Shown here: positions 1 through 40,304 of the stretch, in pieces
Layout of the letters: every line of letters starts with the position of its first letter
Numbering within the stretch: the first letter of the stretch is position 1
NCBI GenBank assembly: GCA_964483625.1
Contig: CAZABB010000001.1
Coordinates: 3,222 to 67,221 of the forward strand
Source of the DNA: an uncultured Planctomycetia bacterium
GTDB taxonomy: Bacteria > Omnitrophota > Gorgyraeia > Duberdicusellales > 4484-171
Direction of reading: 5' to 3'
Length of the DNA stretch: 64,000 nt
Made by a program: the position numbers and the translations under genes
Notes under the pieces: model-generated
What the model saw: only the letters and a program-made list of their open reading frames with translations
Databases searched by the model: none
What the model was told of the DNA's origin: nothing

Positions 1-615
1 GTAAGAAACATCGAAAAAGCGACGTCGCTGGGACTGCCGGTTCAGATAAATTTTACCGTAACCCGCGTTAATTTCCGTGAACTTCCTTCCGTATACAGAC
101 TCGCCCGGCGTCTGGGCGTCGGGACGTTTTCAGTCGGTTCCCTGAACAGAATAGGATGCGGCATGCAGAATAAGGATATTTTCTCCCTTCCTTACTTCTT
201 TTATATCTGCTGGGTAAAATTCTGGCAGCGCACACTCGCCCCCGGGGGAAAAACGTTATTTTACATAAAAGAACGGTGCGATGCGAATATCTACACGTAC
301 ATAGACCATAAGGGATATCTTCACTTTTGCACGTTAATACCCCGCACAATGCCTCTGGGCAATCTTCTTAAGGAAGATTTACTTACTATCTGGCATTCGG
401 ATACGTACACACGCCTGTTTGATCTTGACTCTGTCAAGGAGCCCTGCCGGTCCTGTTTTTTTGAAAGGGAATGTCCCAAAGGATGCCGGGCGGAGATTTA
501 CGCCAGAGAAAGCGATTTTTTTGCCGGTAACACTGATTGCCTGCGAGGTAAAGTATCCCAGAAAGTGAAAGGTCTGGCTTCCTTTTTGAAAAAATCCCCC
601 TCAGATCTTTCTTAA
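1..615 (+). CDS. radical SAM/SPASM-domain protein, C-terminal part (5' end lies outside the window)
   Basis: Frame 1 is open from nt 1 (VRNIEKATSLGLPVQINFTVTRV...) to the stop at 615. The C-terminus has a Cys-rich SPASM-like signature (GCG..C..GNLLKEDLLTIWHSD..CRSCFFERECPKGC). Confidence 0.75.
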   Translation, partial: VRNIEKATSLGLPVQINFTVTRVNFRELPSVYRLARRLGVGTFSVGSLNRIGCGMQNKDIFSLPYFFYICWVKFWQRTLAPGGKTLFYIKERCDANIYTYIDHKGYLHFCTLIPRTMPLGNLLKEDLLTIWHSDTYTRLFDLDSVKEPCRSCFFERECPKGCRAEIYARESDFFAGNTDCLRGKVSQKVKGLASFLKKSPSDLS

Positions 616-1833: not shown

Positions 1834-2855
1834 ATTATATTCGTATAAAAGACATTGACCAGAAGATTCCGGTACTCAGGAGCCCGTAGCATCTCTCTTA
1901 TCTCTTTCGAATTTTCCCCGAACCATATTTTTCTGAAATTATAATCGCAGTCCCGGAAATTCCCCAGCACGTAATCCCGTGAGTAACTCGCGCATAACTC
2001 CCCGGAAGACATTACGTAACCGGACGCGATCCCTTCGAAGTTGGCAAGAGAATCGTCATTAAGCAGGTGCGCATAAAACGCTTTCCGCAATTTTCCGATC
2101 AAAGCCGGCGTACCGCCGTTCTTGGTAAAATCGCTTTCTTTTAATAGAAATCTGAGGATATCGCGATATTCTTCTTTATCCGGGGTGATATCGAGATCAA
2201 AGTTGTATAAACGCGCTCTGTTTTCGGCCAATTCGGCGATATAAGAGTCCGGCTTTATTTTCCGGACGAATTCATAGATATCCCGGAAAAAAGCGGCATT
2301 GAACTTCGATATAACCGTGTTGACTCCGACCGTTAATTGAGAACTGGGTATCTTTCTGAGCCCATAAAACGTACGCAGAAACCTTTCGAAATTGCCGCTC
2401 AGGCCGCGTATTTCGTCATGCTTCCTGCCGACTCCGTCCAGGGAAAGATTGATGATCACATTCAAACCCGGGCACGTCTTCAGGATCGTCTCCGCGACCG
2501 AATGAATCCGCTCGGTAAGCGTTCCGTTGGTCGCGATGGTTAAAAACTCCGGTTTGGTCTTTTCATACACAACCTGTATAATACACGCCAGGTCGTCACG
2601 AAGAAAAGGCTCCCCGCCCATAATCGTGACGGAAAAAAGACGGCCATACCCGGTGAAAATCTTCTCGTATTCGGCCGGGGTCAGTTCCCGGGCCGGATCA
2701 CCCCGCGCTTTCCAGATATTGCAGGTCCGGCACCTTGAATTACATCGATCGGTAACACAAAGCGTGAGAACGCGCGGAAGCATTTTGGGATGTCCCGTCC
2801 ACCGGAAAAAATTATACCCTATTATGCTCGGTATGTGTTGAAACATAATCGTCAT
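1791..2855 (-). CDS. radical SAM enzyme with twitch/partial-SPASM C-terminus
   Basis: LCVTDRCNSRCRTC motif and a GGEPFL glycine motif. The C-terminal region has 3 Cys (CASY..RDCDY..NIMCRP). An alternative start is at 2783 (MLPRVLTL...). Confidence 0.8.
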   Translation of the reverse strand: MTIMFQHIPSIIGYNFFRWTGHPKMLPRVLTLCVTDRCNSRCRTCNIWKARGDPARELTPAEYEKIFTGYGRLFSVTIMGGEPFLRDDLACIIQVVYEKTKPEFLTIATNGTLTERIHSVAETILKTCPGLNVIINLSLDGVGRKHDEIRGLSGNFERFLRTFYGLRKIPSSQLTVGVNTVISKFNAAFFRDIYEFVRKIKPDSYIAELAENRARLYNFDLDITPDKEEYRDILRFLLKESDFTKNGGTPALIGKLRKAFYAHLLNDDSLANFEGIASGYVMSSGELCASYSRDYVLGNFRDCDYNFRKIWFGENSKEIREMLRAPEYRNLLVNVFYTNIMCRPFRLYLNPPQR

Positions 2856-4308
2856 CTGCCGTCCGTTTTCCCATTGTTCCCGAGAAAACTTTCCGCAAAA
2901 AATTATGAAAAAACCGGGAAAAAGGTCTTATTTTATAATACATCTTTCTATAGTAAGGGTACAGGAGAAGATAGAGAGTCGTATCTTTGATATGAATACC
3001 CGCCAGAATTCTGACAACCGGCAGCAGAAAATTTCTTTTGACTTCCGAATAAAACACATTGTGGTAGTAACAAATCTTCTTTCCCGAGATCGTCGGGAGA
3101 TCCAATATCGTTTTTCCCTCATTGTATGCCTTTACTTTTCTTTCACTTATGAGACCCTGCCGGACACACGTATCGTACAGTTCGGTCCCGGGATAAGGAC
3201 GGAAAACAAACTGAACCGGAAACGTGGGACGAACCTGCCGATTGAGTGCGATCGTCTGGCGCACGGTATGTTCATCTTCCCCGGGAAGCCCGATGAGATT
3301 CAGCCCAAACGTACGTATGCGGTATGTATCGCATAATTGAAACGCTCTCTTTATCTGTCCATCGGTAAGGTTTCTCCTAAGAAGCCGGTTGCGGAGATAG
3401 ACGTTACCGGATTCGATACCTATACATACCGTGTCGCATCCGGCGCGTTTCAGAAGACGCATCACATTCTCGTTCAGAACCTCCGGTCGGGCGTTTATTC
3501 CAAAAGGCATGTTAATTCTGGATTTATATTCTTTACAAAAACGACTCAAATATTCTTCTTCGAGAGTAAAGATGTCGTCATGAAACGTGATACGGTTGAA
3601 TGTATATCGCGCCGCCAGCTGTTCCAGCTCGCCTATTACATGCTCCACACTTCTTCGCCGTAAAAGCCGGCCTTTTCCCCTGTAAAGTTTGTGAAGGAAA
3701 TTATTTACGCAATAAGGACAATTATACAGGCATCCCCGGCTGGACATGACCTCGGCATCCTTAAATTTCCGGTCATTTATTATTTTCTGATAATCGAACA
3801 TTTCTCGATCCGCATACGGCAGTGAATCCAAATCTTCTATAAGCGGCCCGACCTCATTTTTTATCACGTGCCCGTTTTTATTGAACCAGAAGTTTTTGAT
3901 CCGGCTGATATCTTTTTGTCTTTCCAACGCCGTCACTAAATCCCGAACGGCGTATTCTCCTTCGCCCCGGCATATTCCCGTCACTCCTTTAAGCCCGATA
4001 CTTTCATCCGGGGCCGCGGTAGGATGCGGTCCGCCCAGGATCACCGGGAGACCATACCGGTCGTATATGTATCCCGCGTACCGGGCAACGAGCGTCATCT
4101 GATCCGAAGCGGCATATATGCCGATAAGACGAGGGTTCACCCTGTCGATACACGTATCGATGCCGGTAGGATGAAATGCGCGGGCGACGAAAAGCTCGAC
4201 AGCGTGTCCGGCATCCTTCAGGACGGCCGCAATACTCCCCAAGCCGTGATGATACCCTACATCATTGAAACCCGGACATTCAATGGGATATACGAACAGA
4301 ATGTTCAC
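2812..4308 (-). CDS. cobalamin-binding (class B) radical SAM enzyme
   Basis: N-terminal Rossmann-like B12-binding region (MNILFVYPIE...ILGGPHPT) followed by SRGCLYNCPYC, matching the xRGCxxxCxFC pattern of B12-rSAM proteins. Confidence 0.85.
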   Translation of the reverse strand: MNILFVYPIECPGFNDVGYHHGLGSIAAVLKDAGHAVELFVARAFHPTGIDTCIDRVNPRLIGIYAASDQMTLVARYAGYIYDRYGLPVILGGPHPTAAPDESIGLKGVTGICRGEGEYAVRDLVTALERQKDISRIKNFWFNKNGHVIKNEVGPLIEDLDSLPYADREMFDYQKIINDRKFKDAEVMSSRGCLYNCPYCVNNFLHKLYRGKGRLLRRRSVEHVIGELEQLAARYTFNRITFHDDIFTLEEEYLSRFCKEYKSRINMPFGINARPEVLNENVMRLLKRAGCDTVCIGIESGNVYLRNRLLRRNLTDGQIKRAFQLCDTYRIRTFGLNLIGLPGEDEHTVRQTIALNRQVRPTFPVQFVFRPYPGTELYDTCVRQGLISERKVKAYNEGKTILDLPTISGKKICYYHNVFYSEVKRNFLLPVVRILAGIHIKDTTLYLLLYPYYRKMYYKIRPFSRFFHNFLRKVFSGTMGKRTADDDYVSTHTEHNRV

Positions 4309-4312
4309 CGTA

Positions 4313-5359
4313 CTAAAACCAATTGCAGTGCAGGCACGGCTGAGGAGGACGACCGCTCCTCATCCGAATCCTCCAATCGATAAATCGCTCATTATTCCAT
4401 ATGCGCAAAGGATGCTCCGCGAAGATGTTCCCGAAAAACATATTATGCAATACGCAGCAGGGAAGGACAAATCCTTTCGATGTGATCGACATTTCATGCC
4501 AGGGCTGATAACAGCCCGTCCACCGCTGCGGCTGATTGAGTTTCGGCAGGGTGAGTTTTATGCCGTATTTTTCCGCGGCCTGCTCTGTCTCTCGAAAACG
4601 GGAACGGATCTCTGTTTTCTCTCCCGCCGGCAGGGTGCGTAGCGCATGTTCCGCCGTGGAAATGCCCGTTTCATACACATACTGTATATCCTGAACCCCG
4701 ACTTCGGATATCCCCAACCTGCGGGCAAGCTCTACCAACGCCGGTAATTCATGTATATTATTCCTCATCACAATTGAACGCAGACTCAGCCGAATGGAAC
4801 TTTGGCGTTCTTTCTTCAGTCGGATCATACATTCGATATTCCCCAGCAGCACACCAAATTTCACTCCCGCACGGATACTCTCCACGGTCGCGGCGGTTGC
4901 TCCGTCAATGGAGAAGAAAATCCGGTCAACTCCCGATGAAATCAGCCTCGACGATACGTCATTGGTCAACAGCATCCCGTTGGTGAAAAGAGCGACATGC
5001 AGTTTTCTCTTTTTTGCGTAATGGATCATTTTAAAAATATCCTTATGCAGTAAAGGTTCTCCCATGCCCAGCAGGGTAACGGCGTAAAGAAAAGGCATGG
5101 TATCGACTATTTTCTGAAAATGCCCGAAATCCATTTCGCTCAACCCGTCTTTCTTTATCTCCGGAGCAAACCGGGGACACATCCTACAGTTCAGATTGCA
5201 TTGATCGGTCACCCCGATGACGGCAGAGAAAGGGAAACGGGGAGACCGGGGAATTACGACCATCTGCACGGCATATAAAAACAAATGCGCGGCGCGGCGC
5301 AACGTAAGGTTTTGTAACATATATTTTATGGCAAAAATGATCCGGTTTTTTATCTTCAT
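4313..5359 (-). CDS. radical SAM enzyme with SPASM domain
   Basis: IGVTDQCNLNCRMC and GMGEPLL motifs. C-terminal SPASM region reads CYQPWHE..PCC..FGNIFAEHPLRIW...CLHC. Confidence 0.85.
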   Translation of the reverse strand: MKIKNRIIFAIKYMLQNLTLRRAAHLFLYAVQMVVIPRSPRFPFSAVIGVTDQCNLNCRMCPRFAPEIKKDGLSEMDFGHFQKIVDTMPFLYAVTLLGMGEPLLHKDIFKMIHYAKKRKLHVALFTNGMLLTNDVSSRLISSGVDRIFFSIDGATAATVESIRAGVKFGVLLGNIECMIRLKKERQSSIRLSLRSIVMRNNIHELPALVELARRLGISEVGVQDIQYVYETGISTAEHALRTLPAGEKTEIRSRFRETEQAAEKYGIKLTLPKLNQPQRWTGCYQPWHEMSITSKGFVLPCCVLHNMFFGNIFAEHPLRIWNNERFIDWRIRMRSGRPPQPCLHCNWF

Positions 5360-5456: not shown

Positions 5457-6425
5457 TCACGTCGTCGAAGCCGCCGTCTTCATCCGTTCCATCCTTTTCA
5501 GGGTCAGAGGGGGAACAAATCCGAATACCTTTGCCAACCGTTCTATTATCCTCACGGGTATCCTTACCAGTGCCGGGGGGATATGTACGATAAACGGCTT
5601 TTTGCGTAACGATTCCGCTAACAACGAAATCATTTCATTCAACGAATATGACTTTTTATCGCGTATTGCATACGTTTCGTTCCGATACCCCAAGGGCGCC
5701 GCCGAATGAATCGGGAACGGCGGGGAACTTCTATTCTCCCCAGGAGAAAAAACAGAATCGCGCGACGGGCATACGTCCCACTCCCAGGTCCGGGAAGCAT
5801 CGTTTTCAGTCTCTCTGTGGATAAGCGCGAGGGTCGCATCCACCAGATTATGCACGTCCAGAGCGGTAATCTTTCTGGTGCCGTCCCCGATGACAGGAAC
5901 GATACCGAGACGAATAAAGGAAGCCAGCTTCTTCAGTTCTTTATCCGGATTCTGCCAGTCATACACTAACGGAGGACGCACAATGACGTAAGGAACGCCG
6001 GATTTTTTGACGATCAGCTCAGATTCATATTTACTTCTTCCGTACGCCGATTCTCTATATTCGACGGCGGCAAGAGAAGAAAAATGGATAAAAGTTCCGA
6101 TCCGGCCGGCGTATTCTTTACACGCTTCAATAAGGTTCTTCGTTCCTTCTACGTTTACCTTTCTGTATTGTGCGTCGTATGACGACGAGACGGCGTTTAT
6201 CGTACCTATCGCCGCCAGGTGAACCACAATATCGATACCGGCCGCGATATGCCGCAACGTTTCCGGTTCACGTATGTCACCATACCACCGCCCGGCCTGA
6301 TCCGGCAGACCGGCGGTATCACTCGTTCTTCTTATCAGACACCGCACACGATGACCTTTTGCGGCCAACTCTCTCGTCACGTATCTGCCAATAAAACCCG
6401 TAGCGCCCGTTATGAGTATATGCAT
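5457..6425 (-). CDS. NAD(P)-dependent epimerase/dehydratase (atypical SDR)
   Basis: N-terminal ITGATGFIGRYV Rossmann motif and a YGRSK (YxxxK) catalytic motif. Confidence 0.8.
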   Translation of the reverse strand: MHILITGATGFIGRYVTRELAAKGHRVRCLIRRTSDTAGLPDQAGRWYGDIREPETLRHIAAGIDIVVHLAAIGTINAVSSSYDAQYRKVNVEGTKNLIEACKEYAGRIGTFIHFSSLAAVEYRESAYGRSKYESELIVKKSGVPYVIVRPPLVYDWQNPDKELKKLASFIRLGIVPVIGDGTRKITALDVHNLVDATLALIHRETENDASRTWEWDVCPSRDSVFSPGENRSSPPFPIHSAAPLGYRNETYAIRDKKSYSLNEMISLLAESLRKKPFIVHIPPALVRIPVRIIERLAKVFGFVPPLTLKRMERMKTAASTT

Positions 6426-6468
6426 TTCACATTATCTTTGGGAAAACGGAATATCCAAAATATTAGCT

Positions 6469-7515
6469 CTATTTACCGGCTCCGTCAAGATTCACCAAAA
6501 AATCTTTAATCACCCGGGCGATAACCCGATGCGCCTGCGGTCCAAAATGCCCGGTTTCTCTAAATGTCAGCCCTTCTTTTCGGGCCGCCTGAATGTGCGG
6601 CCGTACGAACACGCACGGCACATTCCTGCGTTGCCAGTAGACAGAGAATGCTTTTTCATATTTCAGCGTTTCCTCCGGGACATCTTCGAGAAATATATCG
6701 CTCAAGTATACAAAAACCGGAACCGCGTTCATGTCTCTTACCGTCCTGACGATTTCCTCGAGAATCGCATTGGTCGCTTTTTCTTCTTCCGAAATATCAT
6801 TCATTCGATGCGACAGCTTACAGACACACAGAGTTATCACATCGATAATCTTTGGTTTCCACCATTCGTTCTTCAGCATCGCTTCCGGCGGGAGAACCGG
6901 TGAATGTTCCTTCCTGAGCCGACCGTTCATCAATCTGAATCTTGGTTTCGCGTAATCCCGGAAGTACAGCATATTACGCACCATATCGACTTTCATAAAT
7001 CCCAGGATGACAATATCCGGTTTATATTTCACTCCTTCTTCCTGAAGATAGACCAGCATCTGGTCATGCCCGTATCCGTGTACGCCGAAATTCAGAACTT
7101 CGCTGGAGGGAATCATGCGCTGCAGATAGAAAGAAAACGTCTCCTCATCACTCACCTCTTCGCCGAACGTATACGAATCCCCGAGGATTAGAATCCTCAG
7201 CGTGCCCCGCGGTTTATCGTAGGCATACTCGCGGTTTCCTCTCAGCCCGCGCGAGTTTGAATTAAGAACCTCGCGGTTAAAATAAAGCATATCGTCCAAA
7301 CCGGCCTTCAAAGCCCATCCCCGTGTGGGGTGATATACGTCGAAGACATAGAAAATTTCAATTCCGTCTTCTTGATGGCGCCGTACCCACTTTATTCTCC
7401 AGGAAGCGCTACATTCATCCTGCAAAAATGATTCGTTCCTCAATATCAGACGGGATGAAATTTCAAAAAACAGGAAAAGCCCGATCACATAATACACATA
7501 CCGGTATTTTTTCAT
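6469..7515 (-). CDS. SGNH/GDSL-family hydrolase (possible glycan O-acyl esterase or transferase), N-terminal membrane anchor
   Basis: Hydrophobic N-terminus (YYVIGLFLFFEI), GDSL block I (ILILGDSYTFG), block II Gly, and a C-terminal TGHFGPQAH (DxxH-like) motif. Confidence 0.65.
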   Translation of the reverse strand: MKKYRYVYYVIGLFLFFEISSRLILRNESFLQDECSASWRIKWVRRHQEDGIEIFYVFDVYHPTRGWALKAGLDDMLYFNREVLNSNSRGLRGNREYAYDKPRGTLRILILGDSYTFGEEVSDEETFSFYLQRMIPSSEVLNFGVHGYGHDQMLVYLQEEGVKYKPDIVILGFMKVDMVRNMLYFRDYAKPRFRLMNGRLRKEHSPVLPPEAMLKNEWWKPKIIDVITLCVCKLSHRMNDISEEEKATNAILEEIVRTVRDMNAVPVFVYLSDIFLEDVPEETLKYEKAFSVYWQRRNVPCVFVRPHIQAARKEGLTFRETGHFGPQAHRVIARVIKDFLVNLDGAGK

Positions 7516-7548
7516 AAGCTTTCCGTCTCTTCCGTTAAGTGAACGAAG

Positions 7549-8373
7549 CTAGGTAAACGCGGCGCGGCAAAAAGACAGGCTCGCCCTGATATTACGGGCG
7601 ATCTTTTTTTTATTCCCGACGCCTAAAGCCCGAGAACTCATCTCGAGCGTAACGATCCCCGGATAACGATCCCGCTTCAGGCGCTTTAAAAACCGCTCTA
7701 ACGGCAATCGGCCTTCGGTTATCAGGCTGTGTTCTCTTCCGTTATAATTGGAAAGATGAACATGCGCTATGCGTTTCTTCAGGCATTCGTACGCTTCCAG
7801 GAGGTCTATTCCCCATGTGCCTACGTGAGTTGTATCGAACGCCACGTGATCAAACCTTTTGAGCTGATCGAGGTTATTGAACCGATACGGGTTCAGGCGG
7901 ACATCCCCCCAACGCATATCGGGCAGGTTTTCCAGGACGATGGTAACCGGGGTATTATCCTGGAAAGATTTCAATTCGCGCGTTAACCATCGAGCATACC
8001 GCTTCTGCCCACCGAAAGGAAAATGGAGCAATATGTCGGCAAGCATCTCGGTTGTTCCCACCCGTACCAAGCGCAACGGCGGATGAATCACTGTGACGCG
8101 GGCGCCGACCGCCTCGGCAAGGGCGATCGAATGCTTTACCCTTTCAATTTCATCCACGGGACAGCCGGAGATATATCCGTTAAAAGGGCTATGGATGCTC
8201 AGGATAGGAACTCCGTACTCATCCCGAAGACGATTCAAGTAGCCCGCCGAATACGCCGACCGATACCGGTTGGCCAATATTTCCAGACCGTCAAACCCGA
8301 CATTGTGTGCGAGCTCAAACGCATATCTGAGAGGATAAGGATATACTGAACCCGCTGATAAAGCGAACATCAT
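7549..8373 (-). CDS. sugar phosphate isomerase/epimerase (xylose-isomerase-like TIM barrel; IolE/IolI-like)
   Basis: IAHVHLSNYNG metal-site motif, a VIHPP motif and TIM-barrel-like periodicity, as in the AP endonuclease 2 / xylose isomerase-like family. Confidence 0.65.
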   Translation of the reverse strand: MMFALSAGSVYPYPLRYAFELAHNVGFDGLEILANRYRSAYSAGYLNRLRDEYGVPILSIHSPFNGYISGCPVDEIERVKHSIALAEAVGARVTVIHPPLRLVRVGTTEMLADILLHFPFGGQKRYARWLTRELKSFQDNTPVTIVLENLPDMRWGDVRLNPYRFNNLDQLKRFDHVAFDTTHVGTWGIDLLEAYECLKKRIAHVHLSNYNGREHSLITEGRLPLERFLKRLKRDRYPGIVTLEMSSRALGVGNKKKIARNIRASLSFCRAAFT

Positions 8374-8385
8374 ACATCTCTTTAT

Positions 8386-9477
8386 TTATGTATCGATCCG
8401 GCCGGCGACAAAATCGTCAACCATCCGTTTCGCCTGAAAATCAGAATATTGCACCGGGGGACGCTTCATCGCGTACGCCGAAAGAGAAGTTAAAACCCCG
8501 CCTCGCCTCCTGTCCAGAGCCAATTTGCACCCCCGGATCACATCGATAACAACCCCGGCACTGTTGGGAGAATCTTCCACCGAAAGTTTCACATCGAGTT
8601 CTATCGGCAGCCCCCCGAATCCCCGTCCTTTCAGAGTGATGAAACAAACTTTGTTGTCTTTTAACCAAGATACATAGTCGGTAGGACTTATATGGACATC
8701 TTCTTCCGCGAACGGACTGTCCGATTGCGATTTTACTGATTCGGCTTTTGATATCTTCTTCAGCTTGAGCCTTTTAAAATCGAGCATATTAAGAAAATCG
8801 GTATTCCCTCCGACATTCAGCTGATATGTGCTGTCAACCTTTACGCCTCTTTCGCTGAATAACTTCACTAATGTTCTATGGAGTACCGTCGCGCCTAACT
8901 GAGATTTGATATCATCACCCACCAGAGGAAGGTTCTTATCTTTAAATTTCTCCGCCCATTGCGAATCGGAAGCTATAAAAACGGGGATATTGTTCACAAA
9001 GGCGGTATGAGAATCCAGACAGCATTGCGCATAGAATTTCGTCGCTTGCTCGGCACCAACGGGGAGATAATTCAACAGCATATCGGCTTTACTTTCCTTT
9101 AAAAGCGCAACGATATCACAGGACGGCGCGGCCGAAATCAAGAACGTTTTTTCCGAAGGGTAGTTCTTCATCTGGTCGTTCACTCCATCCCCGACGACAC
9201 CCATATTCACTTTTACGCCGCGGGCGGGTATATCGTTCTGAAAGATGGTACCGCAGTTTGGTCTTTCAAAGATGGCACGCGCGATATCTTTTCCCACTTT
9301 TCGTTCATCGACATCAATCGCGGCGACCACTTCTATATCTTCCGGGGTATATCCGCCCATACTGTAGGACGTCAGCCCCATATCGCTGTTCCTCCTGTTT
9401 CTATAGTATTCTATTCCCTGAAGCAAACTGCTGGCACAATTGCCGACACCGACAATGGCAATCTTTATCCTGCTCAT
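8386..9477 (-). CDS. ino1: myo-inositol-1-phosphate (inositol-3-phosphate) synthase
   Basis: KIAIVGVGNCASSL Rossmann motif plus blocks conserved in bacterial/archaeal MIPS (VNNIPVFIASD..., LVGDDIKSQLGAT, QLNVGGNTDFLN, SPNSAGVVIDVIRGCKLALDR). The start is trimmed to MSRIKIAIVG at 9477; the longest ORF extends to 9513. Confidence 0.8.
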   Translation of the reverse strand: MSRIKIAIVGVGNCASSLLQGIEYYRNRRNSDMGLTSYSMGGYTPEDIEVVAAIDVDERKVGKDIARAIFERPNCGTIFQNDIPARGVKVNMGVVGDGVNDQMKNYPSEKTFLISAAPSCDIVALLKESKADMLLNYLPVGAEQATKFYAQCCLDSHTAFVNNIPVFIASDSQWAEKFKDKNLPLVGDDIKSQLGATVLHRTLVKLFSERGVKVDSTYQLNVGGNTDFLNMLDFKRLKLKKISKAESVKSQSDSPFAEEDVHISPTDYVSWLKDNKVCFITLKGRGFGGLPIELDVKLSVEDSPNSAGVVIDVIRGCKLALDRRRGGVLTSLSAYAMKRPPVQYSDFQAKRMVDDFVAGRIDT

Positions 9478-10220
9478 CCGGCTTCCTCTTTCTTCCGGCT
9501 GTCTTTTACGCATACAAACAGAAAATTACGGGCGAACAGCGCGGGAAGAATTTTGTACAGTCCGGAATAATATATCCCTTCCCCTATTATTCTCAATTTT
9601 TTCCAGGGTTCCTCGCTTATCCGTTGCGGAAAATAATACTTCCGGGAAATACAGACCAGACCGGTTTTCTCAACCAGCTTCTCCAGGACATTCCGGGAAA
9701 AGACACGGATATGTTCCGAAAACAATGCATCCCGCTTGTGATATACGTCCGTTATATCTTTAAATGCCCCGCAGAGAAAATAAAACCTGTTCACTATATT
9801 CAGCATATTGGGAACCGAGATGACCAGAATGCCGTTGTCTTTCACAACCCGTCTACACTCGCCCAGGAGGGATTCCGGATCAAGCGCATGTTCCAATACA
9901 TCCATAATTAAAATAGCATCGAAAGACTTGTCGGTAAAGGGGATTCCCCCGTCAATATCGCCCAAAACAACTTTAACACCTTTGGCCGAAGCCTCCTTGA
10001 GCGCTTTCTCGCACATATCAAGGCCTATGACCGTATGGGCGGCGGTTAAATCTTCGCTCATACTGCCGCGGCCGCACCCCATATCCAGGATAAGAAAATT
10101 ATTCCGCTGTATTTTCTTTTTCACTAACTCTCGTCTCCATTTCTCATAAGGCCCCAGTGCCGTTTCCTGCCAAACTGCGAGACGATGCCAGTAATCTGTG
10201 GAATATTTTTTTATATCCAT
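9474..10220 (-). CDS. class I SAM-dependent methyltransferase
   Basis: Motif I LDMGCGRGSMSE and motif II/III region (VLGDID...ILIMDVLEH). Confidence 0.8.
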   Translation of the reverse strand: MDIKKYSTDYWHRLAVWQETALGPYEKWRRELVKKKIQRNNFLILDMGCGRGSMSEDLTAAHTVIGLDMCEKALKEASAKGVKVVLGDIDGGIPFTDKSFDAILIMDVLEHALDPESLLGECRRVVKDNGILVISVPNMLNIVNRFYFLCGAFKDITDVYHKRDALFSEHIRVFSRNVLEKLVEKTGLVCISRKYYFPQRISEEPWKKLRIIGEGIYYSGLYKILPALFARNFLFVCVKDSRKKEEAG

Positions 10221-10226
10221 ACGTTT

Positions 10227-11249
10227 CTATCCGCCGCTCATAGGGGCGGATTCCTGACCCCGGTAAACCGGCCGGGAAGGCAGTCTCTGTTTGAAAACAA
10301 TTTCGTAGAGAACACCCGTCTTAAATATCAATCTGGTAACAAGCACGACGAAAAATTCACCAAGAGCACGGAAAGGAAGCTGGAATTCTTCCCGGTGTTT
10401 TACCATGGACGCGGCGACGATCAGGAAGGGAGACAGGATAAAAAATACCGTCTTTCTGATCCCTGCGGGAACATTCACATCAAAATGCCTGTTGAAAAAA
10501 TACATCTGCGCATACCCTCTTCCATAAATAAAGTACTGTTTCGCCAGGGCGGCAAACGCAGCCCGGTGATAATGCTTCACGGTGATACCGGGAATGTAGA
10601 GCAGTTTTCTCCCCTCACGGCAAAGAGATAAATGCAGACTAAGATCATCACAATTTATTAAACGTTCATCAAATCTGAATTTTTTGAATATATCTTTCTT
10701 ATAGGAAATATTGCAGCCGCGAAGGTGTACCGCCTCAAAAGGCTTATCTTCCCGCCTGAAATACCGGCGCAGAAATGAGGAATCCGCCGGAGTATTTTCA
10801 ATAATATCATTGTCGTCCCATATGATCTGACTGACACGGTGGAAAAAATTATTTTTTAAAGCGGGGATCGCTTTCCCCCCTATCGCCATGACGCGGGGAT
10901 ACATATTGTGGAATTTCAAAATATTCTCGACCCACATCTTATCGCAAACGCAATCATCGTCGGTTAACGCGATCACATCTCCCGCACAATACCGCAGACC
11001 CGTATTCCTTGCCGTGGCGATATTCCTCCGTCTGCGTTCCGTGACGCATCGAAACGTCGGGAAACGGACCCGGTATCCGGCAACGACCTCCGGAGTGTTA
11101 TCCGTCGAACCATTATCCACAACAATAACCTCTTCGGGCATTCTGGTCTGAACAAGCAGACTGTCCAGACAGTTTTTCAAAAGCTCCGCTCTATTGAGCG
11201 TGACGACCAGCACCGAGATTTTCGGGGGAGAACATGTCGCATTTCTCAT
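10227..11249 (-). CDS. GT2 family glycosyltransferase with C-terminal transmembrane anchor
   Basis: ISVLVVTLNRAELL..VIVVDNGSTDNT..ALTDDDC (GT-A DxD region). The C-terminal ~100 aa are hydrophobic. Confidence 0.85.
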   Translation of the reverse strand: MRNATCSPPKISVLVVTLNRAELLKNCLDSLLVQTRMPEEVIVVDNGSTDNTPEVVAGYRVRFPTFRCVTERRRRNIATARNTGLRYCAGDVIALTDDDCVCDKMWVENILKFHNMYPRVMAIGGKAIPALKNNFFHRVSQIIWDDNDIIENTPADSSFLRRYFRREDKPFEAVHLRGCNISYKKDIFKKFRFDERLINCDDLSLHLSLCREGRKLLYIPGITVKHYHRAAFAALAKQYFIYGRGYAQMYFFNRHFDVNVPAGIRKTVFFILSPFLIVAASMVKHREEFQLPFRALGEFFVVLVTRLIFKTGVLYEIVFKQRLPSRPVYRGQESAPMSGG

Positions 11250-12783
11250 AAAGTTCTACGAAGAGACCATCGAATTCCCTGCTTTCTAATTTCCTGTATT
11301 TTTTTCCTAACCATTCCTTCACTGCCAGAGAGTTCGGTTCCAGAACACCCGTTCTGAACCAGGAAGAAGAAATCAACCATATCCTTTCGAAATTATACTT
11401 TTCGATATCCCGGCTTAAATCAATTACTCCCGGCGGGACTATCCCATCCTGCCTTTCCCGCTCCTCCCACGAACGTATCTCCTTACGCCAATATGTGTCC
11501 TGCTCGGAATAGAATGTGAAATAATACGAACCTACGGGATCACGACAGCCAAAATAGTACCATAAAGAGGGCACACTGCTCGGATGCGTGTGCGCGATGA
11601 TATCATTTTTTTCCAGTTTCCTCTTTAGATATCCCGCCACGGAAACAAAATCCTTCTTAGGACACACTCCCACCGAATGCCGATTGCCGTATCCCAAAGG
11701 CATAAAGCCCGTATAATAATTAGACAGAGATACCACCGTCAACAGAACGACTCCGGCGCCGAGAAGAAACCTCACCCCGTATGCGCCTATACCGGTCACT
11801 CCCGAAGCGACGATAATATAATAAAACGGGGAAACCGCCATATTTTGCCGGTCAAGGTATATGGGTATCCATTGGGAGAAAAAAAAAGAGGCAAAAACAG
11901 GTGCAAATAAAAATACAAGCAGAAACGACACGTTTTGAGCGCGGCGGCGGCAGTAGAAAATACCGCCGATAAACAACAGAGTACATAAAATCGATCCCGG
12001 AAGATAGGCGTGGTTCGGAGCGTTGTACCCCAACGTGAAATTTTCAAAAGTAGCTAAAAGAGAACGAGGAACAGGCGTAGACAGCCAAAACGCATCTTTT
12101 ACCCAGTTGAGGTGGCTGAAAGCCTCCTTAAACCAGGGACTGAAGACAGGGAGAATCACAAGATAACTTATCAACCATTTCCTGACCGGTACTTTTTCTC
12201 TTCGAAAAAAAAGGAAAGGTATACCGGCCAAAATCACCCAGAAGGTAAAATAAGACACATAAAGGCCGAGAATAGCCGAGAGCGCAAAAGAAATCCAAAG
12301 CCACGATTTATCTTCTTTTACGGCGCGTACAAAAAAATACACTATTGCCATTATGAAACAAGGCAACAAAGTGTATTCTCTCACCTCCTGCGCATACCAG
12401 ATATGAAGGGGAGAAATAGCCAGGAGAAACGCGCTGATCAATCCCGTCTTTCTGTCGACAAACAGACTCGCCAATGTATATATCCAGAATATGGAGATCA
12501 CGCCGAACAGCACCGAAAGGGAACGCAGAGCAGCTTCACCTCTGCCAAATACTCTGATCCAGAGGCTCAGTAACGCATAATATAAAGGAGGCTGGGGACT
12601 TGATGAAGAATAATTTTCCACGATACGTACACTCACGGCTTCATCATACCAGAGATCATTGGCATCCAATCTATACATCCTCAGAGCCGTTCCGAGGAGG
12701 ATAATGAGAAAGAGGACAATAATGACCTTTTGATTTCGCATATGCAGGAGAAGTGTCATAAGGATATGCCGGTTTTCATGCAA
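11191..12783 (-). CDS. GT-C fold glycosyltransferase, ArnT/PMT-like (GT39/GT83-type; polyprenyl-phosphate-sugar dependent)
   Basis: About 12 predicted TM helices. N-terminal loop-1 DE motif region (ALRMYRLDANDLWYDEAVS) is typical of the dolichyl-P-mannose protein mannosyltransferase / ArnT family. Confidence 0.7.
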   Translation of the reverse strand: MHENRHILMTLLLHMRNQKVIIVLFLIILLGTALRMYRLDANDLWYDEAVSVRIVENYSSSSPQPPLYYALLSLWIRVFGRGEAALRSLSVLFGVISIFWIYTLASLFVDRKTGLISAFLLAISPLHIWYAQEVREYTLLPCFIMAIVYFFVRAVKEDKSWLWISFALSAILGLYVSYFTFWVILAGIPFLFFRREKVPVRKWLISYLVILPVFSPWFKEAFSHLNWVKDAFWLSTPVPRSLLATFENFTLGYNAPNHAYLPGSILCTLLFIGGIFYCRRRAQNVSFLLVFLFAPVFASFFFSQWIPIYLDRQNMAVSPFYYIIVASGVTGIGAYGVRFLLGAGVVLLTVVSLSNYYTGFMPLGYGNRHSVGVCPKKDFVSVAGYLKRKLEKNDIIAHTHPSSVPSLWYYFGCRDPVGSYYFTFYSEQDTYWRKEIRSWEERERQDGIVPPGVIDLSRDIEKYNFERIWLISSSWFRTGVLEPNSLAVKEWLGKKYRKLESREFDGLFVELYEKCDMFSPENLGAGRHAQ

Positions 12784-12834: not shown

Positions 12835-13854
12835 TTAAACCGGGGGTTTATCTTGCTCGACCTCCCATATATAGGGGTTTTTCTCCCGTATGTAGAAGTC
12901 GCATAAGCCCATTATTCTTGCATACGCCTCAAGAATCACGGCACCCGCCATCCAGAAAAAATAATTGAAGCCGCCTTCCAAATTGCGCACAACCAGGCTG
13001 AAAATGCGCAGATTGCTCAGGCTGGAAACGGCATACCCCGCTGTTTTTTTCAAATGAAGATGCCCGGTATAAACTCTCCTCCTCTGAGCAAGATAGGCCT
13101 TTACGGTACGAGGCCCCCTGTTGTAAACAACCGCTTCAGGAACGTAACATAAACGATACCCTTTCCGTACAACCAATGCCTCGATCGCCGCCTCATCGAC
13201 CGCCGTGTCGCCCGGTATTCTCGTTACCACCGCCTTTCTAAAAGCAACCAGCTCTCCCAATTTGGGATATTTTAACGCTAATTTATGATGCAGCAACCAC
13301 AGCCGATGCACGGCAAATCCCAGGAAATTCTCGGGAGTATCCCGGGGAACGGAACGGCCGCCGACCATTCCTGTATCGGGGATCGTAAAGGGCTTGAGAA
13401 GATTCTTAATCGTGTCTTTACACGGCACGGTGTCGCCGCTCTCTAGAATACAGATATCCGCAGAGGTCTGTTGGAGAAAATAATTTACCGCCGAGGCTTT
13501 TCCCAACCGTTCTTTTTGAACGAAAAGCCGTATTCGTCTATCGCGTTCTTTAAATCTCTTTACAACGTCTTCGGTATTGTCGGTACATCCGCTGGCTATA
13601 ACCACTATTTCATGAATAGTAAAACATCCCGGTTCCTGAGCGATTAATCCCTCTAATAACCGACTAATGTTGGCCTGCTCATTATAAACGGGTATCCCGA
13701 TACTGCAGGTAAGAATCCTTGTTTCCGTATGCGTAGCATCCATGGGCGAAACGAAACAAATCATTGTTAAAAGAAATTCTCCCTCCCTATGAAATATACG
13801 TATTATCTCATAAAAATTACTCAATATGAAGCGTTTCATCGGAATACCAAACAC
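12835..13854 (-). CDS. GT2 family glycosyltransferase
   Basis: IGIPVYNEQANISRLL...VVIASGCTDNTEDVV...ILESGDTV, GT-A fold motifs. The start is possibly the internal Met at ~13743. Confidence 0.8.
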   Translation of the reverse strand: MFGIPMKRFILSNFYEIIRIFHREGEFLLTMICFVSPMDATHTETRILTCSIGIPVYNEQANISRLLEGLIAQEPGCFTIHEIVVIASGCTDNTEDVVKRFKERDRRIRLFVQKERLGKASAVNYFLQQTSADICILESGDTVPCKDTIKNLLKPFTIPDTGMVGGRSVPRDTPENFLGFAVHRLWLLHHKLALKYPKLGELVAFRKAVVTRIPGDTAVDEAAIEALVVRKGYRLCYVPEAVVYNRGPRTVKAYLAQRRRVYTGHLHLKKTAGYAVSSLSNLRIFSLVVRNLEGGFNYFFWMAGAVILEAYARIMGLCDFYIREKNPYIWEVEQDKPPV

Positions 13855-14061
13855 CGAAACAAAAGGCCGGTCTCCCTCCGCATGAGGCTTTCCACAAATA
13901 TTCTTTTTAAAATAATTCTTTTCCTTTTTGAATCTTTTCCGACAGGGATATGTTTTATCTTTACTTGTCTCTCACATTTTGGCATAATTACTTTTACGCA
14001 TAGGAAAAGTTTTTCCCTTATCCGACAGACACCTGCCTCACTCCTGAGGCTTACGGAAAGA
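13855..14061. promoter_or_regulatory. AT-rich divergent intergenic region between oppositely oriented operons (probable divergent promoters)
   Basis: A 207-bp non-coding gap between the minus-strand GT2 gene and the plus-strand B12-rSAM gene. A GGAAAG Shine-Dalgarno-like element lies 7 nt before the ATG at 14062. No specific -35/-10 elements are called. Confidence 0.25.
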
Positions 14062-15429
14062 ATGAATATAAAAGTAGCGTTGATTAATCCGACAATCAAA
14101 GAACTTCAAGCAAGCGAAGTACCCTTGCACTTGGGGTATATCGCGGGACACCTGGAACAAAACGGTATCGAAGTAATAATCATAGACCAGGCGGCCGGGG
14201 ATGATGTGGAGAGAGAAATCGATTCTTATCGTCCCGACATAATCGGCATCAGCAGTATGTCGGCCATGATAGGCGAAGCCTATAGAATAGCGGACATGTG
14301 CCGTAACAGAGGAATCCTCACCGTCATGGGAGGAGAACATGCCAGCGCGTTGCCGGAAGAAGCACAGGAACACGCCGATGTAGTTGTGGCAGGGGAAGGA
14401 GAGATAGCTATGCTGGATATCGTCAGAAAAAAAATCACATCCGGCATCATATCCGGTCCCCAGCTGGAAGATATAGACGATCTGCCGTTATATCCCTGGC
14501 ATCTTATCAACCAGACATACTATCTCAATTTATCAAACGAAACGAAACTGGCCACCCTTGCTTTTCTCGGCTCCCGTCTCTCTTCGGCCAAAACGAGTTC
14601 ATTTCTTACCAGCCGGGGATGTCCCTTTCACTGTACCTTCTGCCATAACAGTCTGAGACAGGTTCATTTCAGATTCCATAGCGCCGAGAGGATAGTAGAA
14701 GAGATGAAACGCCTCAGGGTAGATTACGGCGTTGAAGCCATAGCGTTTTTAGACGAGAATTTTCTGTTGAATAAGACAAGGCTTGAGAAAATTTGCCGTA
14801 CCATACGAAAAGAAAAGCTCAGTGTCCTATGGAGCTGTGCCAGTTCGGCTCATTTCGTCGACGCACAATCTGTCCGGATGATCCGGGATGCCGGATGCCG
14901 GCAGGTATCCTTCGGCGTAGAAAGCGGCTCGCAAAGAATTTTGGACATTCTGAATAAGTCCGTTACGGTAGAACAAAATAAAAAGGCAATCAAAATCTGC
15001 CGGGAAGCCGGATTGATCGTGCACGGTTCATTCATGCTGGGAAATCCCACGGAGACCGTCGAAGATGTAAAATTAACCCAAAAGTTCATTCTCGAGACCG
15101 ACATCGAAAGCTACCGTATCAATATCACCACGCCCTATCCCGGCACGAAACTCTGGGAACTCTACCACGAACAAATTCCCCGGCCTATTGACTGGCATCG
15201 TTTCGAAGCAAGCACCAATATCGAGACATACCCCTATACCCCATTCAGCAGGGAAGAACTCAAACGCCTGTTCTTTGAAACTTCGCTGATAAAGCCGGCG
15301 ATATATAAACGGGACTGGAAAATGGCGCTGCGTTATCCAAAAGAAACGATTTCCTGGGGTATCCGGCATCCGTTGACAGCAACGAGAATTATCGCAGGGA
15401 AATATAATATGAGAAGCATGCAAGACTGA
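14062..15429 (+). CDS. cobalamin-binding (class B) radical SAM enzyme
   Basis: MNIKVALINP..B12-binding Rossmann region, SRGCPFHCTFC. The start is placed at the ATG after the GGAAAG SD. The in-frame upstream ORF from 13789 is probably not translated. Confidence 0.85.
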   Translation: MNIKVALINPTIKELQASEVPLHLGYIAGHLEQNGIEVIIIDQAAGDDVEREIDSYRPDIIGISSMSAMIGEAYRIADMCRNRGILTVMGGEHASALPEEAQEHADVVVAGEGEIAMLDIVRKKITSGIISGPQLEDIDDLPLYPWHLINQTYYLNLSNETKLATLAFLGSRLSSAKTSSFLTSRGCPFHCTFCHNSLRQVHFRFHSAERIVEEMKRLRVDYGVEAIAFLDENFLLNKTRLEKICRTIRKEKLSVLWSCASSAHFVDAQSVRMIRDAGCRQVSFGVESGSQRILDILNKSVTVEQNKKAIKICREAGLIVHGSFMLGNPTETVEDVKLTQKFILETDIESYRINITTPYPGTKLWELYHEQIPRPIDWHRFEASTNIETYPYTPFSREELKRLFFETSLIKPAIYKRDWKMALRYPKETISWGIRHPLTATRIIAGKYNMRSMQD

Positions 15430-24797: not shown

Positions 24798-24804
24798 AAC
24801 CCTG

Positions 24805-40289: not shown

Positions 40290-40304
40290 CGGGGTTTGAG
40301 GATT

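What the first reader, a model, noticed from the sequence alone, without database searches (positions are those of the whole stretch)
5457..10220. Inositol or cyclitol module embedded in the glycan locus
The module comprises myo-inositol-1-phosphate synthase (8386-9477) with a xylose-isomerase-like TIM-barrel enzyme (IolE/IolI-like, 7549-8373), an atypical SDR epimerase/dehydratase (5457-6425), a SAM methyltransferase (9474-10220) and an SGNH hydrolase. Together these suggest synthesis of a modified inositol (inosose, scyllo-, methyl- or amino-inositol) that is incorporated into the glycan or lipid anchor. This resembles the PI-mannoside/LAM logic (inositol + polyprenyl-P-sugar + GT-C) and streptomycin-type aminocyclitols. 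The neighbouring twitch/SPASM rSAMs could oxidise the cyclitol, as BtrN does.
Basis: partly seen in the sequence, partly recalled or inferred. Interest (0 to 1): 0.6.

Follow-up and report, generated by a model that had tools for sequence, protein, structure and literature searches.

The report
Inositol synthase pair inside glycan operon
A genuine inositol-phosphate synthase gene sits in a large sugar-polymer operon of an uncultured bacterium, always followed in its closest relatives by an uncharacterised metal-binding barrel enzyme instead of the usual lipid-making partner, so the cell probably makes inositol for a surface glycan, but how it is modified is not shown.

Summary
All five genes are real and correctly placed. 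The 8386-9477 product is a canonical myo-inositol-1-phosphate synthase (MIPS): full-length, 52% identical to M. tuberculosis Ino1, with the NAD motif and catalytic Asp/Lys residues intact.

The "modified inositol module" reading is only partly supported.
- The conserved unit is smaller and shifted. Methyltransferase, MIPS and TIM barrel, preceded by GT-C and GT2, recur in one related metagenomic contig. MIPS followed by TIM recurs in a second.
- The SDR and SGNH genes do not recur.
- The TIM barrel is not IolE/IolI-like beyond superfamily level. Its nearest relative is the orphan MJ1311, and it keeps most of the endonuclease IV-type metal ligands. That points to phosphoester chemistry more than to inosose isomerisation.
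- The window has no IMPase, CDP-alcohol phosphatidyltransferase, cytidylyltransferase, aminotransferase or GFO-type inositol dehydrogenase.
- No radical SAM enzyme in the locus reaches any curated family cut-off, and BtrN is not among the matches.

Close MIPS relatives elsewhere mostly pair with a CDP-alcohol phosphatidyltransferase (46/80) and never with this barrel (0/80). The pairing is therefore a rare, undescribed variant. Its chemistry remains inferred.

The parts
8386..9477 (-). myo-inositol-1-phosphate (inositol-3-phosphate) synthase, 363 aa
   Evidence: 372 bits and 52% identity over the full length to M. tuberculosis Ino1 (1GR0), against 188 bits to the Ari2 five-membered cyclitol-phosphate synthase. 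The motifs GVGNCAS, DDIKSQLGAT, NVGGNTDFLN, KKISK and DSPNSAG are present, as are the equivalents of Mtb D197, K284, D310 and K346. PF01658 scores 119 bits and TIGR03450 scores 411 bits.
7549..8373 (-). MJ1311-like xylose-isomerase-fold TIM barrel metalloenzyme, coupled to MIPS
   Evidence: PF01261 scores 74 bits. The best solved relative is MJ1311 (3WQO), at 64 bits with the family profile. The AF2 model has pLDDT 90.5. Invariant residues H60, H96, E147, D179, H182, H205, H214 and E243 were found, and seven of them align with endonuclease IV metal ligands. The gene lies directly downstream of MIPS in all three loci where the barrel is at least 63% identical.
9474..10220 (-). class I SAM-dependent methyltransferase, translationally coupled to MIPS
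   Evidence: PF08241 scores 76 bits. Its stop codon overlaps the MIPS start as ATGA. A 68%-identical orthologue occupies the same position in L002. No curated family cut-off is reached, and the best solved relative is 3CC8, of unknown function.
10227..11249 (-). GT2 glycosyltransferase with two C-terminal membrane helices; conserved upstream neighbour of the core
   Evidence: PF00535 scores 115 bits. Membrane helices are predicted at residues 262-285 and 296-319. A 67%-identical orthologue is in the same position in L002.
11191..12783 (-). GT-C (PMT_2) membrane glycosyltransferase; conserved upstream neighbour
   Evidence: PF13231 scores 67.5 bits. Multiple membrane helices are predicted. The C-terminus is 69% identical to the first, truncated gene of L002.
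6469..7515 (-). membrane-anchored SGNH/GDSL-like hydrolase; in the operon but not conserved with the core
   Evidence: PF13472 scores 30.8 bits, below the gathering score of 32.9. An N-terminal membrane helix is predicted. No homologue occurs in L002 or L169.
5457..6425 (-). extended SDR (HpnA/3-beta-HSD/NDUFA9-like); in the operon but not conserved with the core
   Evidence: PF01370 scores 102 bits. The best NCBIfam hit is HpnA at 75 bits, far below its cut-off of 368. The best solved relative is 3WJ7 at 63 bits. No homologue occurs in L002.

Best explanation
The block methyltransferase (9474-10220), MIPS (8386-9477) and TIM barrel (7549-8373) is a dedicated inositol-supply sub-module of a very large, radical-SAM-rich glycan or glycolipid operon.

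Proposed steps:
1. MIPS cyclises glucose-6-phosphate to 1L-myo-inositol-1-phosphate. This follows from strong homology and intact catalytic residues.
2. The TIM barrel processes the phosphorylated inositol, or a glycosylated inositol phosphate. It is a soluble MJ1311-like metalloenzyme with most of the endonuclease IV-type His/Asp/Glu ligand set. The most likely chemistry is phosphoester hydrolysis. That would replace the IMPase, PIP phosphatase or MshA2-type step for which the window has no gene. This step is inferred, not shown.
3. The co-translated methyltransferase O-methylates the cyclitol or the nascent glycan. This is inferred and weak.
4. The product is used by the conserved upstream GT2 and GT-C pair, as acceptor or as a constituent of the exported polymer. 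This is inferred from conserved gene order only.

The SDR and SGNH genes belong to the operon but not demonstrably to the inositol branch.
For: - MIPS identity: full-length match of 372 bits to Mtb Ino1, all checked catalytic and NAD motifs conserved, and thousands of relatives at about 60% identity labelled MIPS in bacteria and archaea.
- Operon: about 13 kb of co-directional genes with overlaps or short gaps, an ATGA overlap between methyltransferase and MIPS, and no promoter or terminator signal above shuffled controls.
- Conserved core: L002 carries GT-C, GT2, methyltransferase, MIPS and TIM barrel at 67-73% identity. L169 carries MIPS, TIM barrel and a methyltransferase. The genes downstream of the barrel differ in all three loci, so the MIPS-TIM pair survives rearrangement.
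- Specificity of the pairing: 0/80 genome loci with barrels of 35-50% identity have MIPS within 10 kb. 0/80 loci with MIPS of 49-61% identity have the barrel.
- Missing canonical partners: the window has no homologue of CDP-alcohol phosphatidyltransferase, inositol-phosphate cytidylyltransferase or SuhB-type IMPase. 46/80 related MIPS loci have the phosphatidyltransferase immediately downstream and 8/80 have an NTP-transferase. These match the known pathways (PMC4634129, PMC9246714).
- Barrel chemistry: the family invariants align with endonuclease IV ligands H109, E145, D179, H182, H216, H231 and E261. The Art22 isomerase lacks the two N-terminal histidines in its alignment. The nearest named NCBIfam family is the phosphodiesterase CbiR (PMC7733943).
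Against: - No biochemical data exist for any member of this barrel family. MJ1311 itself has no assigned function.
- The endonuclease IV D229 equivalent is not conserved, and the H60-to-H69 equivalence rests on motif similarity only.
- By fold, the barrel is as close to ketose 3-epimerases, UlaE and YcjR as to anything else, with TM-scores of 0.65-0.72. Isomerase or epimerase activity on a keto-inositol is therefore not excluded.
- MIPS-linked barrels differ from the stand-alone Chloroflexota family at only four conserved positions. The family's reaction may therefore be general and unrelated to inositol.
- There are only three instances of the pairing, from related lineages. Retained synteny could partly explain them.
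- An IMPase or a PIP synthase may be encoded elsewhere in the genome. The source contig is 137 kb and only 64 kb is visible here.
- The methyltransferase has no informative relatives.
Confidence: 0.4

Rival explanations
1. Free myo-inositol is oxidised by the SDR to an inosose. The TIM barrel then isomerises or dehydrates it in IolI/IolE fashion. It is next reduced, methylated or aminated to give a scyllo-, chiro-, methyl- or amino-cyclitol, with the radical SAM enzymes helping as BtrN does. The product is incorporated into the glycan.
For: The TIM barrel belongs to the same Pfam superfamily as IolE and IolI. By fold it resembles keto-sugar epimerases and IolE, with TM-scores of about 0.65. 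An SDR with an intact catalytic triad, a methyltransferase and several SPASM/twitch-type radical SAM genes are in the same operon.
Against: IolE and IolI scores are at noise level: 18 bits against a cut-off of 290, 17.7 bits and 12 bits. The SDR is absent from the two related loci that keep MIPS and the barrel. The window has no phosphatase to make free inositol, no GFO-type inositol dehydrogenase and no aminotransferase. No radical SAM protein reaches any curated family cut-off, and BtrN is not among the families matched. The extra invariant histidines are typical of endonuclease IV and MJ1311, not of the Art22 isomerase.
Confidence: 0.2
2. MIPS serves ordinary inositol phospholipid or compatible-solute synthesis, with the PIP synthase or cytidylyltransferase encoded elsewhere in the genome. 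Its position in the glycan operon, and the adjacent TIM barrel, are not mechanistically linked to the glycan.
For: Most close MIPS relatives are paired with a CDP-alcohol phosphatidyltransferase. Only 64 kb of a contig of at least 137 kb is visible. The barrel family is mostly stand-alone and housekeeping-like in Chloroflexota, with no conserved neighbours.
Against: MIPS is translationally coupled to the upstream methyltransferase and lies mid-operon between glycosyltransferases and radical SAM genes. The order GT-C, GT2, methyltransferase, MIPS, TIM barrel is conserved at 67-73% identity in L002 while the flanks have been rearranged.
Confidence: 0.2
3. The MIPS homologue is a neofunctionalised cyclase, like Ari2, which makes a five-membered cyclitol phosphate from fructose-6-phosphate. 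The TIM barrel tailors that non-inositol carbocycle.
For: MIPS-fold enzymes with altered products exist: 6K96 (Ari2) is matched at 188 bits. The window MIPS, L002 and L169 form their own group at 73-79% identity, against 63% or less to all others. TIGR03450 scores below its equivalog cut-off.
Against: The protein is much closer to authentic Ino1 (372 bits) than to Ari2 (188 bits). It is about as far (roughly 60%) from bacterial and archaeal proteins labelled MIPS as its top-scoring relatives are. All checked MIPS motifs are intact. The TIGR03450 cut-off is, from my own knowledge, tuned to the actinobacterial mycothiol clade.
Confidence: 0.07

Closest known systems
Bacterial and archaeal MIPS (Ino1) of the short type, e.g. 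M. tuberculosis Ino1 (PDB 1GR0)
   Same: Full-length 52% identity. The Rossmann NAD motif, the lysine pair in KKISK and the catalytic Asp/Lys positions are conserved.
   Different: The genomic partner differs. Here there is no PIP synthase, no mycothiol genes and no cytidylyltransferase. The neighbours are instead a methyltransferase and an MJ1311-like barrel inside a glycan operon.
MJ1311 of Methanocaldococcus jannaschii (PDB 3WQO, deposited as 'D-tagatose 3-epimerase-like protein')
   Same: It is the best sequence and fold match to the TIM barrel: 64 bits with the family profile and the top Foldseek hit. All family-invariant His, Asp and Glu positions are shared.
   Different: Identity is only about 20%. 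MJ1311 keeps the endonuclease IV D229 equivalent, which this family lacks. MJ1311 has no known function or MIPS link. My recollection that its authors noted conserved endonuclease IV zinc ligands comes from memory, as the paper could not be retrieved.
MIPS-centred inositol lipid clusters: the mycobacterial/Bacteroides type (PIP synthase plus PIP phosphatase) and the alternative type (NTP-transferase plus CDP-alcohol phosphatidyltransferase plus HAD)
   Same: Both start from MIPS. These are the arrangements seen around most close MIPS relatives: 46/80 and 8/80 loci (PMC9246714, PMC4634129).
   Different: None of the partner enzymes is present in the 64 kb window. The neighbours are glycosyltransferases, radical SAM enzymes and the TIM barrel.
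CbiR cobamide-remodelling phosphodiesterase and endonuclease IV (AP endonuclease 2 superfamily phosphoesterases)
   Same: The fold is shared. The metal-ligand pattern of H, H, E, DxxH, H, H, E is largely shared with endonuclease IV. CbiR is the best-scoring named NCBIfam family. CbiR shows that small-molecule phosphodiester hydrolysis occurs in this superfamily (PMC7733943).
   Different: The CbiR score is 32 bits against a cut-off of 105. The profile match to E. coli endonuclease IV is not significant. No cobamide biosynthesis genes are adjacent.
IolE / IolI (inosose dehydratase / isomerase) and the aminocyclitol pathways (streptomycin, butirosin BtrN)
   Same: Superfamily fold for IolE and IolI. 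Inositol-derived chemistry is the general theme.
   Different: Scores are at noise level. The window has no inositol dehydrogenase of the GFO family, no aminotransferase and no BtrN-family hit.

Membership tests
myo-inositol-1-phosphate synthase (EC 5.5.1.4; PF01658, TIGR03450) | Full-length homology to biochemically and structurally characterised MIPS | tested here: met
   372 bits, residues 3-359 against 15-367 of Mtb Ino1 (1GR0), 52% identity. PF01658 scores 119 bits against a gathering score of 27.
myo-inositol-1-phosphate synthase (EC 5.5.1.4; PF01658, TIGR03450) | N-terminal NAD-binding glycine motif and catalytic Asp/Lys residues (Mtb D197, K284, D310, K346; the KxxxK lysine pair) | tested here: met
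   GVGNCAS is present, as are D189, K276, D302, K338 and K240/K244 in KKISK. The list of essential Mtb residues comes from my own knowledge, and a literature search did not retrieve the source.
myo-inositol-1-phosphate synthase (EC 5.5.1.4; PF01658, TIGR03450) | Score above the NCBIfam equivalog cut-off (TIGR03450, 638 bits) | tested here: not met
   411 bits, aligned end to end. The model is named mycothiol_INO1. Top-scoring relatives at about 60% identity that sources label MIPS come from non-actinobacterial lineages, so the shortfall probably reflects clade rather than function.
myo-inositol-1-phosphate synthase (EC 5.5.1.4; PF01658, TIGR03450) | Conversion of glucose-6-phosphate to inositol-1-phosphate | not testable with these tools
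   An enzyme assay is needed.
IolE / IolI inosose dehydratase / isomerase | Family-level HMM match (TIGR04379 cut-off 290) or significant similarity to solved IolE or IolI | tested here: not met
   TIGR04379 scores 18.4 bits. IolE 3CNY scores 17.7 bits and IolI 1I60 scores 12.2 bits with the family profile.
IolE / IolI inosose dehydratase / isomerase | Co-occurrence with inositol dehydrogenase (IolG, GFO family) and other iol genes | tested here: not met
   No such domain was found in any of the principal ORFs of the window (those of at least 150 aa; at least 240 aa in the first 14 kb).
MJ1311-like / endonuclease IV-type multi-metal TIM barrel | Significant similarity to MJ1311 | tested here: met
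   E = 1.4e-16 and 63.9 bits with profile A1. It is also the top Foldseek hit.
MJ1311-like / endonuclease IV-type multi-metal TIM barrel | The nine metal ligands of E. coli endonuclease IV (H69, H109, E145, D179, H182, H216, D229, H231, E261) | tested here: inconclusive
   Seven align with family-invariant residues. The equivalence of H69 to H60 rests on motif similarity only. D229 has no conserved counterpart.
CbiR cobamide phosphodiesterase (NF041277) | Score above the cut-off of 105 bits and adjacency to cobamide genes | tested here: not met
   32.3 bits. No cobamide biosynthesis genes are in the window.
Extended SDR (NAD-dependent epimerase/dehydratase) | GxxGxxG cofactor motif and Ser...YxxxK catalytic residues | tested here: met
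   GATGFIG and FSS...AYGRSK are in the translated sequence. PF01370 scores 102 bits. No specific subfamily cut-off is reached.
SGNH/GDSL hydrolase | Pfam gathering score and conserved blocks | tested here: inconclusive
   PF13472 scores 30.8 bits, below 32.9, and matches only block I (LILGDSYTFG). A block V-like GHF...AH is seen by eye.
PI-anchored glycan logic (PIM/LM/LAM) | PI/PIP synthase (CDP-alcohol phosphatidyltransferase) supplying the inositol lipid anchor | tested here: not met
   There is no homologue in the 64 kb window (tblastn best E = 3.2). One could lie elsewhere in the genome.
PI-anchored glycan logic (PIM/LM/LAM) | GT-C enzymes using polyprenyl-phosphate sugars | tested here: inconclusive
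   Three PMT_2 GT-C proteins are present. The GT2 at 10227-11249 has two C-terminal membrane helices. It shows no specific similarity to solved polyprenyl-phosphate glycosyltransferases.
Aminocyclitol biosynthesis (streptomycin / butirosin type) | Inositol or inosose aminotransferase and BtrN-type radical SAM dehydrogenase | tested here: not met
   The window has no aminotransferase domain. All radical SAM hits are far below the curated cut-offs and none is to BtrN.

The most novel reading that the evidence does not exclude
The MJ1311-like TIM barrel is a previously unrecognised inositol-phosphate (or glycosyl-inositol-phosphate) phosphoesterase. This would give the orphan MJ1311 and Chloroflexota family its first function. 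Together with MIPS, a methyltransferase, a GT2 and a GT-C, it would define a new route by which bacteria build (methyl-)inositol into an exported glycan without a PI lipid or a CDP-inositol intermediate.
Probability: 0.2. Interest if true: 0.65.

Novelty: new variant of a known kind. Interest (0 to 1): 0.4.

Why it matters
Bacterial uses of de novo inositol are few: PI lipids and their glycoconjugates, mycothiol, di-inositol-phosphate solutes and aminocyclitol antibiotics. Each has a recognisable partner enzyme next to or downstream of MIPS.

Here MIPS sits in a glycan operon with none of those partners. It has instead a strictly co-located orphan metallo-barrel. This suggests a further way of using inositol in cell-surface polymers of uncultured bacteria.

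It also offers a concrete, testable substrate hypothesis for a widespread protein family with no assigned function, comprising MJ1311 and several hundred Chloroflexota homologues. If the barrel turns out to be an ordinary keto-sugar epimerase, or MIPS merely feeds lipids, the finding is routine.

Tried and rejected
- Identifying the organism. The exact proteins occur only in one NCBI contig (137 kb) and one Logan contig, with no name attached. The genome is not among the GTDB representatives scanned. The best named PEPCK homologues are at most 60% identical and scattered over many candidate phyla. The organism remains unplaced.
- Inferring barrel function from neighbours in 80 Chloroflexota-type loci. 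No neighbour is conserved; the best cluster occurs in 13/82 loci.
- Profile HMM comparison with E. coli endonuclease IV. The match is not significant. Only hhalign and MAFFT register could be used.
- Geometric check of the metal site.
- Literature searches. Nothing useful was found for MJ1311, for MIPS together with a xylose-isomerase-like or sugar phosphate isomerase gene, or for the Mtb Ino1 mutagenesis residues.
- Solved-structure searches for the SDR, methyltransferase, GT2 and GT-C. They gave only generic or no relatives.
- Promoter and terminator scans. Nothing exceeded shuffled controls.
- CbiR membership was considered and rejected: the score is far below the cut-off and there is no cobamide context.
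- HpnA/HpnJ (hopanoid) membership of the SDR and the B12 radical SAM was considered and rejected: 75 and 136 bits against cut-offs of 368 and 578.

Full report
**Observation**

The minus strand from about 13854 down to 601 carries twelve tightly spaced or overlapping ORFs. In order of transcription they are:
- GT2, 12835-13854
- GT-C of PMT_2 type, 11191-12783
- GT2, 10227-11249
- class I methyltransferase, 9474-10220
- MIPS, 8386-9477
- xylose-isomerase-fold TIM barrel, 7549-8373
- SGNH-like protein, 6469-7515
- extended SDR, 5457-6425
- four radical SAM proteins, 4313-5359, 2812-4308, 1791-2855 and 601-1833

The SGNH call is marginal, at 30.8 bits against a gathering score of 32.9.

The MIPS ORF runs to 9513, but 9477 is the correct start. 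It matches the N-termini of homologues and the 363-aa database gene call. It is preceded by AAGAGGAAG and overlaps the methyltransferase stop as ATGA. Twelve nucleotides, including an AAAGAGA stretch, separate the MIPS stop from the barrel start. Promoter-like and terminator-like sites do not exceed shuffled controls. The gene spacing points to one long operon.

**Is the MIPS real?**

Yes. The protein aligns end to end with M. tuberculosis Ino1 (1GR0) at 372 bits and 52% identity. It scores about half that, 188 bits, against Ari2, the MIPS-fold enzyme that makes a five-membered cyclitol phosphate.

The following features are all present:
- the GVGNCAS nucleotide-binding motif
- the DDIKSQLGAT, NVGGNTDFLN and DSPNSAG motifs
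- the lysine pair in KKISK
- the equivalents of Mtb D197, K284, D310 and K346, which I recall from the mutagenesis literature but could not retrieve

More than 7,000 proteins match at E ≤ 1e-100; the best-scoring ones, about 60% identical, include bacterial and archaeal proteins that sources label MIPS. The window protein is no more divergent from them than they are from each other.

**What travels with MIPS?**

I looked at context from both directions.

Starting from the barrel: a search of 5.8 billion proteins found only two close relatives besides the window's own protein, at 67% and 63% identity.
- The 67% relative is on JGI contig L002. That contig reads GT-C, GT2, methyltransferase, MIPS, TIM barrel, B12 radical SAM, a second methyltransferase, radical SAM. 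Its first five genes are 67-73% identical to the window's and in the same order.
- The 63% relative is on the 1.6 kb contig L169. It is preceded by a MIPS C-terminus that is 79% identical to the window's. It is followed by the second methyltransferase of L002.
- Neither contig has homologues of the SDR or the SGNH protein.
- All 80 genome loci with more distant barrels (35-50% identity, mostly Chloroflexota) lack MIPS within 10 kb and share no conserved neighbour.

Starting from MIPS: 80 metagenomic loci with MIPS of 49-61% identity never contain the barrel.
- In 46 of them the next gene is a roughly 190-aa CDP-alcohol phosphatidyltransferase.
- In 8 there is an NTP-transferase.
- These are the two described bacterial inositol-lipid arrangements (PMC4634129, PMC9246714).

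The window contains no homologue of either partner, nor of SuhB-type IMPase. Among its principal ORFs (those of at least 150 aa; at least 240 aa in the first 14 kb) there is no aminotransferase, GFO-type dehydrogenase, HAD or PAP2 phosphatase.

The conserved unit is therefore (GT-C, GT2), methyltransferase, MIPS, TIM barrel. It is not the 5457-10220 block as drawn in the finding.

**What is the TIM barrel?**

It has a confident TIM-barrel model (pLDDT 90.5). By sequence it is nearest to the orphan M. jannaschii protein MJ1311: 41 bits as a single sequence and 64 bits with a 23-member family profile. Other profile scores are much lower:

| Solved relative | Bits |
|---|---|
| Art22 | 36 |
| YcjR | 35 |
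| IolE | 17.7 |
| UlaE | 16.5 |
| endonuclease IV | 13 |
| IolI | 12 |

The best named NCBIfam family is the phosphodiesterase CbiR, at 32 bits and far below its cut-off. IolE scores 18 bits. Foldseek puts MJ1311 first, followed by ketose 3-epimerases, UlaE, YcjR and IolE, at similar TM-scores of 0.65-0.72. Fold alone does not discriminate between these.

The family alignment shows invariant H60, H96, E147, D179, H182, H203, H205, H214 and E243.
- hhalign and MAFFT place E147, D179, H182, H205, H214, E243 and H96 on endonuclease IV ligands E145, D179, H182, H216, H231, E261 and H109.
- H60 probably corresponds to H69 by local motif (ILSIHSPF against ILPHDSY), but MAFFT did not align it there.
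- The D229 equivalent is not conserved in this family, although MJ1311 has it.
- The Art22 isomerase lacks both N-terminal histidines in its alignment.

A His-rich, probably binuclear or larger, metal site is what distinguishes the phosphoesterases of this superfamily, endonuclease IV and CbiR (PMC7733943), from the single-metal E-D-H-E isomerases and epimerases. That last generalisation is from my own knowledge.

On this basis I favour phosphoester chemistry on inositol phosphate or a derivative of it. That would also fill the otherwise missing dephosphorylation step. This is inference. Three points weigh against it. MIPS-linked barrels differ from the stand-alone family at only four conserved positions. 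The stand-alone members show no inositol context. No member of the family has been assayed.

**The other genes**

- The SDR has an intact GxxGxxG and Ser/Tyr/Lys triad. It resembles HpnA, 3-beta-HSD, NDUFA9 and a Gluconobacter-type oxidoreductase (3WJ7), with no subfamily assignment. In SDR nomenclature it is not 'atypical'.
- The SGNH-like protein has an N-terminal membrane helix. From my own knowledge, that topology is usual for enzymes that handle glycan O-acyl groups outside the cytoplasm.
- The methyltransferase is generic.
- No radical SAM protein in the locus reaches a curated cut-off, and none points to BtrN.
- The GT2 next to the methyltransferase has two C-terminal membrane helices. 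It shows no specific similarity to solved polyprenyl-phosphate glycosyltransferases.

**Mechanism and confidence**

Shown:
- a canonical MIPS
- an operonic, translationally coupled methyltransferase-MIPS pair
- a MIPS-TIM pair conserved through local rearrangement
- absence of every canonical inositol-phosphate consumer from the window

Inferred:
- inositol phosphate is processed by the barrel, most likely by hydrolysis
- the product may be methylated
- the product is used by the conserved GT2 and GT-C pair in building an exported glycan

I put 0.4 on this package.

**Novelty and verdict**

MIPS itself is ordinary. Its embedding in a glycan operon with an MJ1311-like barrel, in place of the lipid-pathway partners, is not described in the literature I could search. 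It is rare in the databases: three loci. It is best filed as a new variant of a known kind, a MIPS-based precursor module. It has moderate interest mainly because it gives an orphan enzyme family a testable substrate.

Noticed in passing
window 1-55880 (both strands): There is an exceptional density of radical SAM genes. About ten are SPASM/twitch-type: 1-615 (partial), 601-1833, 1791-2855, 4313-5359, 20680-21738, 24715-25914, 26706-27806, 31541-32662, 32663-33901 and 51750-52895. Six are B12-binding: 2812-4308, 13789-15429, 15482-17230, 17227-18966, 50345-51745 and 52808-54208. They are interleaved with GT2, GT4 and GT-C glycosyltransferases, three carbamoyltransferases (33792-35483, 48678-50342, 54126-55880), two polysaccharide deacetylases and an ABC-2 exporter. 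None of the radical SAM proteins that were scanned reaches any NCBIfam cut-off. As a whole, the locus may be more unusual than the inositol part.
   Followed up: partly
window 15482-17230 and 17227-18966 (+): These are two adjacent B12-binding radical SAM genes of near-identical length and domain layout. They carry matching internal small ORFs, so they are probably a tandem duplication. The one scanned (15482-17230) is nearest to the KedN5-type C-methyltransferase subfamily, at 154 bits against a cut-off of 700.
   Followed up: no
window 1-615 (+): This is the C-terminal part of a radical SAM/SPASM gene that runs off the left end of the window. It is convergent with the operon. It is 71% identical to the last gene of L002, where it is co-directional with MIPS and the barrel. 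The two loci therefore share gene content but have been rearranged.
   Followed up: partly
loci L008-L087 (genome contigs, mostly Anaerolineae and Caldilineaceae): A large stand-alone family of MJ1311-like barrels, with 189 confirmed genome hits, has strictly invariant His, Asp and Glu residues. It has no conserved gene neighbourhood and no assigned function.
   Followed up: partly
L033, L045, L046, L053, L059 (ANGP1 / Bacillota-type MAGs): In five related barrel loci a SuhB/IMPase-family gene lies about 7-8 kb upstream of the barrel. The genomes are related and the gene is distant, so this may be coincidence.
   Followed up: no
L006 1791-7284 (GCA_030446645.1): A barrel that is 50% identical is followed by a Trm112-fused methyltransferase, a 606-aa membrane protein, a split UbiA prenyltransferase and a flavoprotein. 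This is a different, possibly lipid-linked, context for the same family.
   Followed up: no
window 35899-36912 (-) and 45994-46701 (+): The first is a WbuX-like N-acetyl sugar amidotransferase, at 175 bits against a cut-off of 203. The second is a small PP-loop ATPase fragment. Both hint at amidated or acetamidino sugars in the glycan.
   Followed up: no
window 39402-42312 (-): The housekeeping genes purC and GTP-dependent PEPCK, together with tRNA-Leu(GAG), interrupt the glycan gene region.
   Followed up: no
window 55890-58121 (-): A 743-aa ORF has no Pfam match. It lies between a carbamoyltransferase and very long TPR proteins at 58292-61609 and 61663-63414.
   Followed up: no
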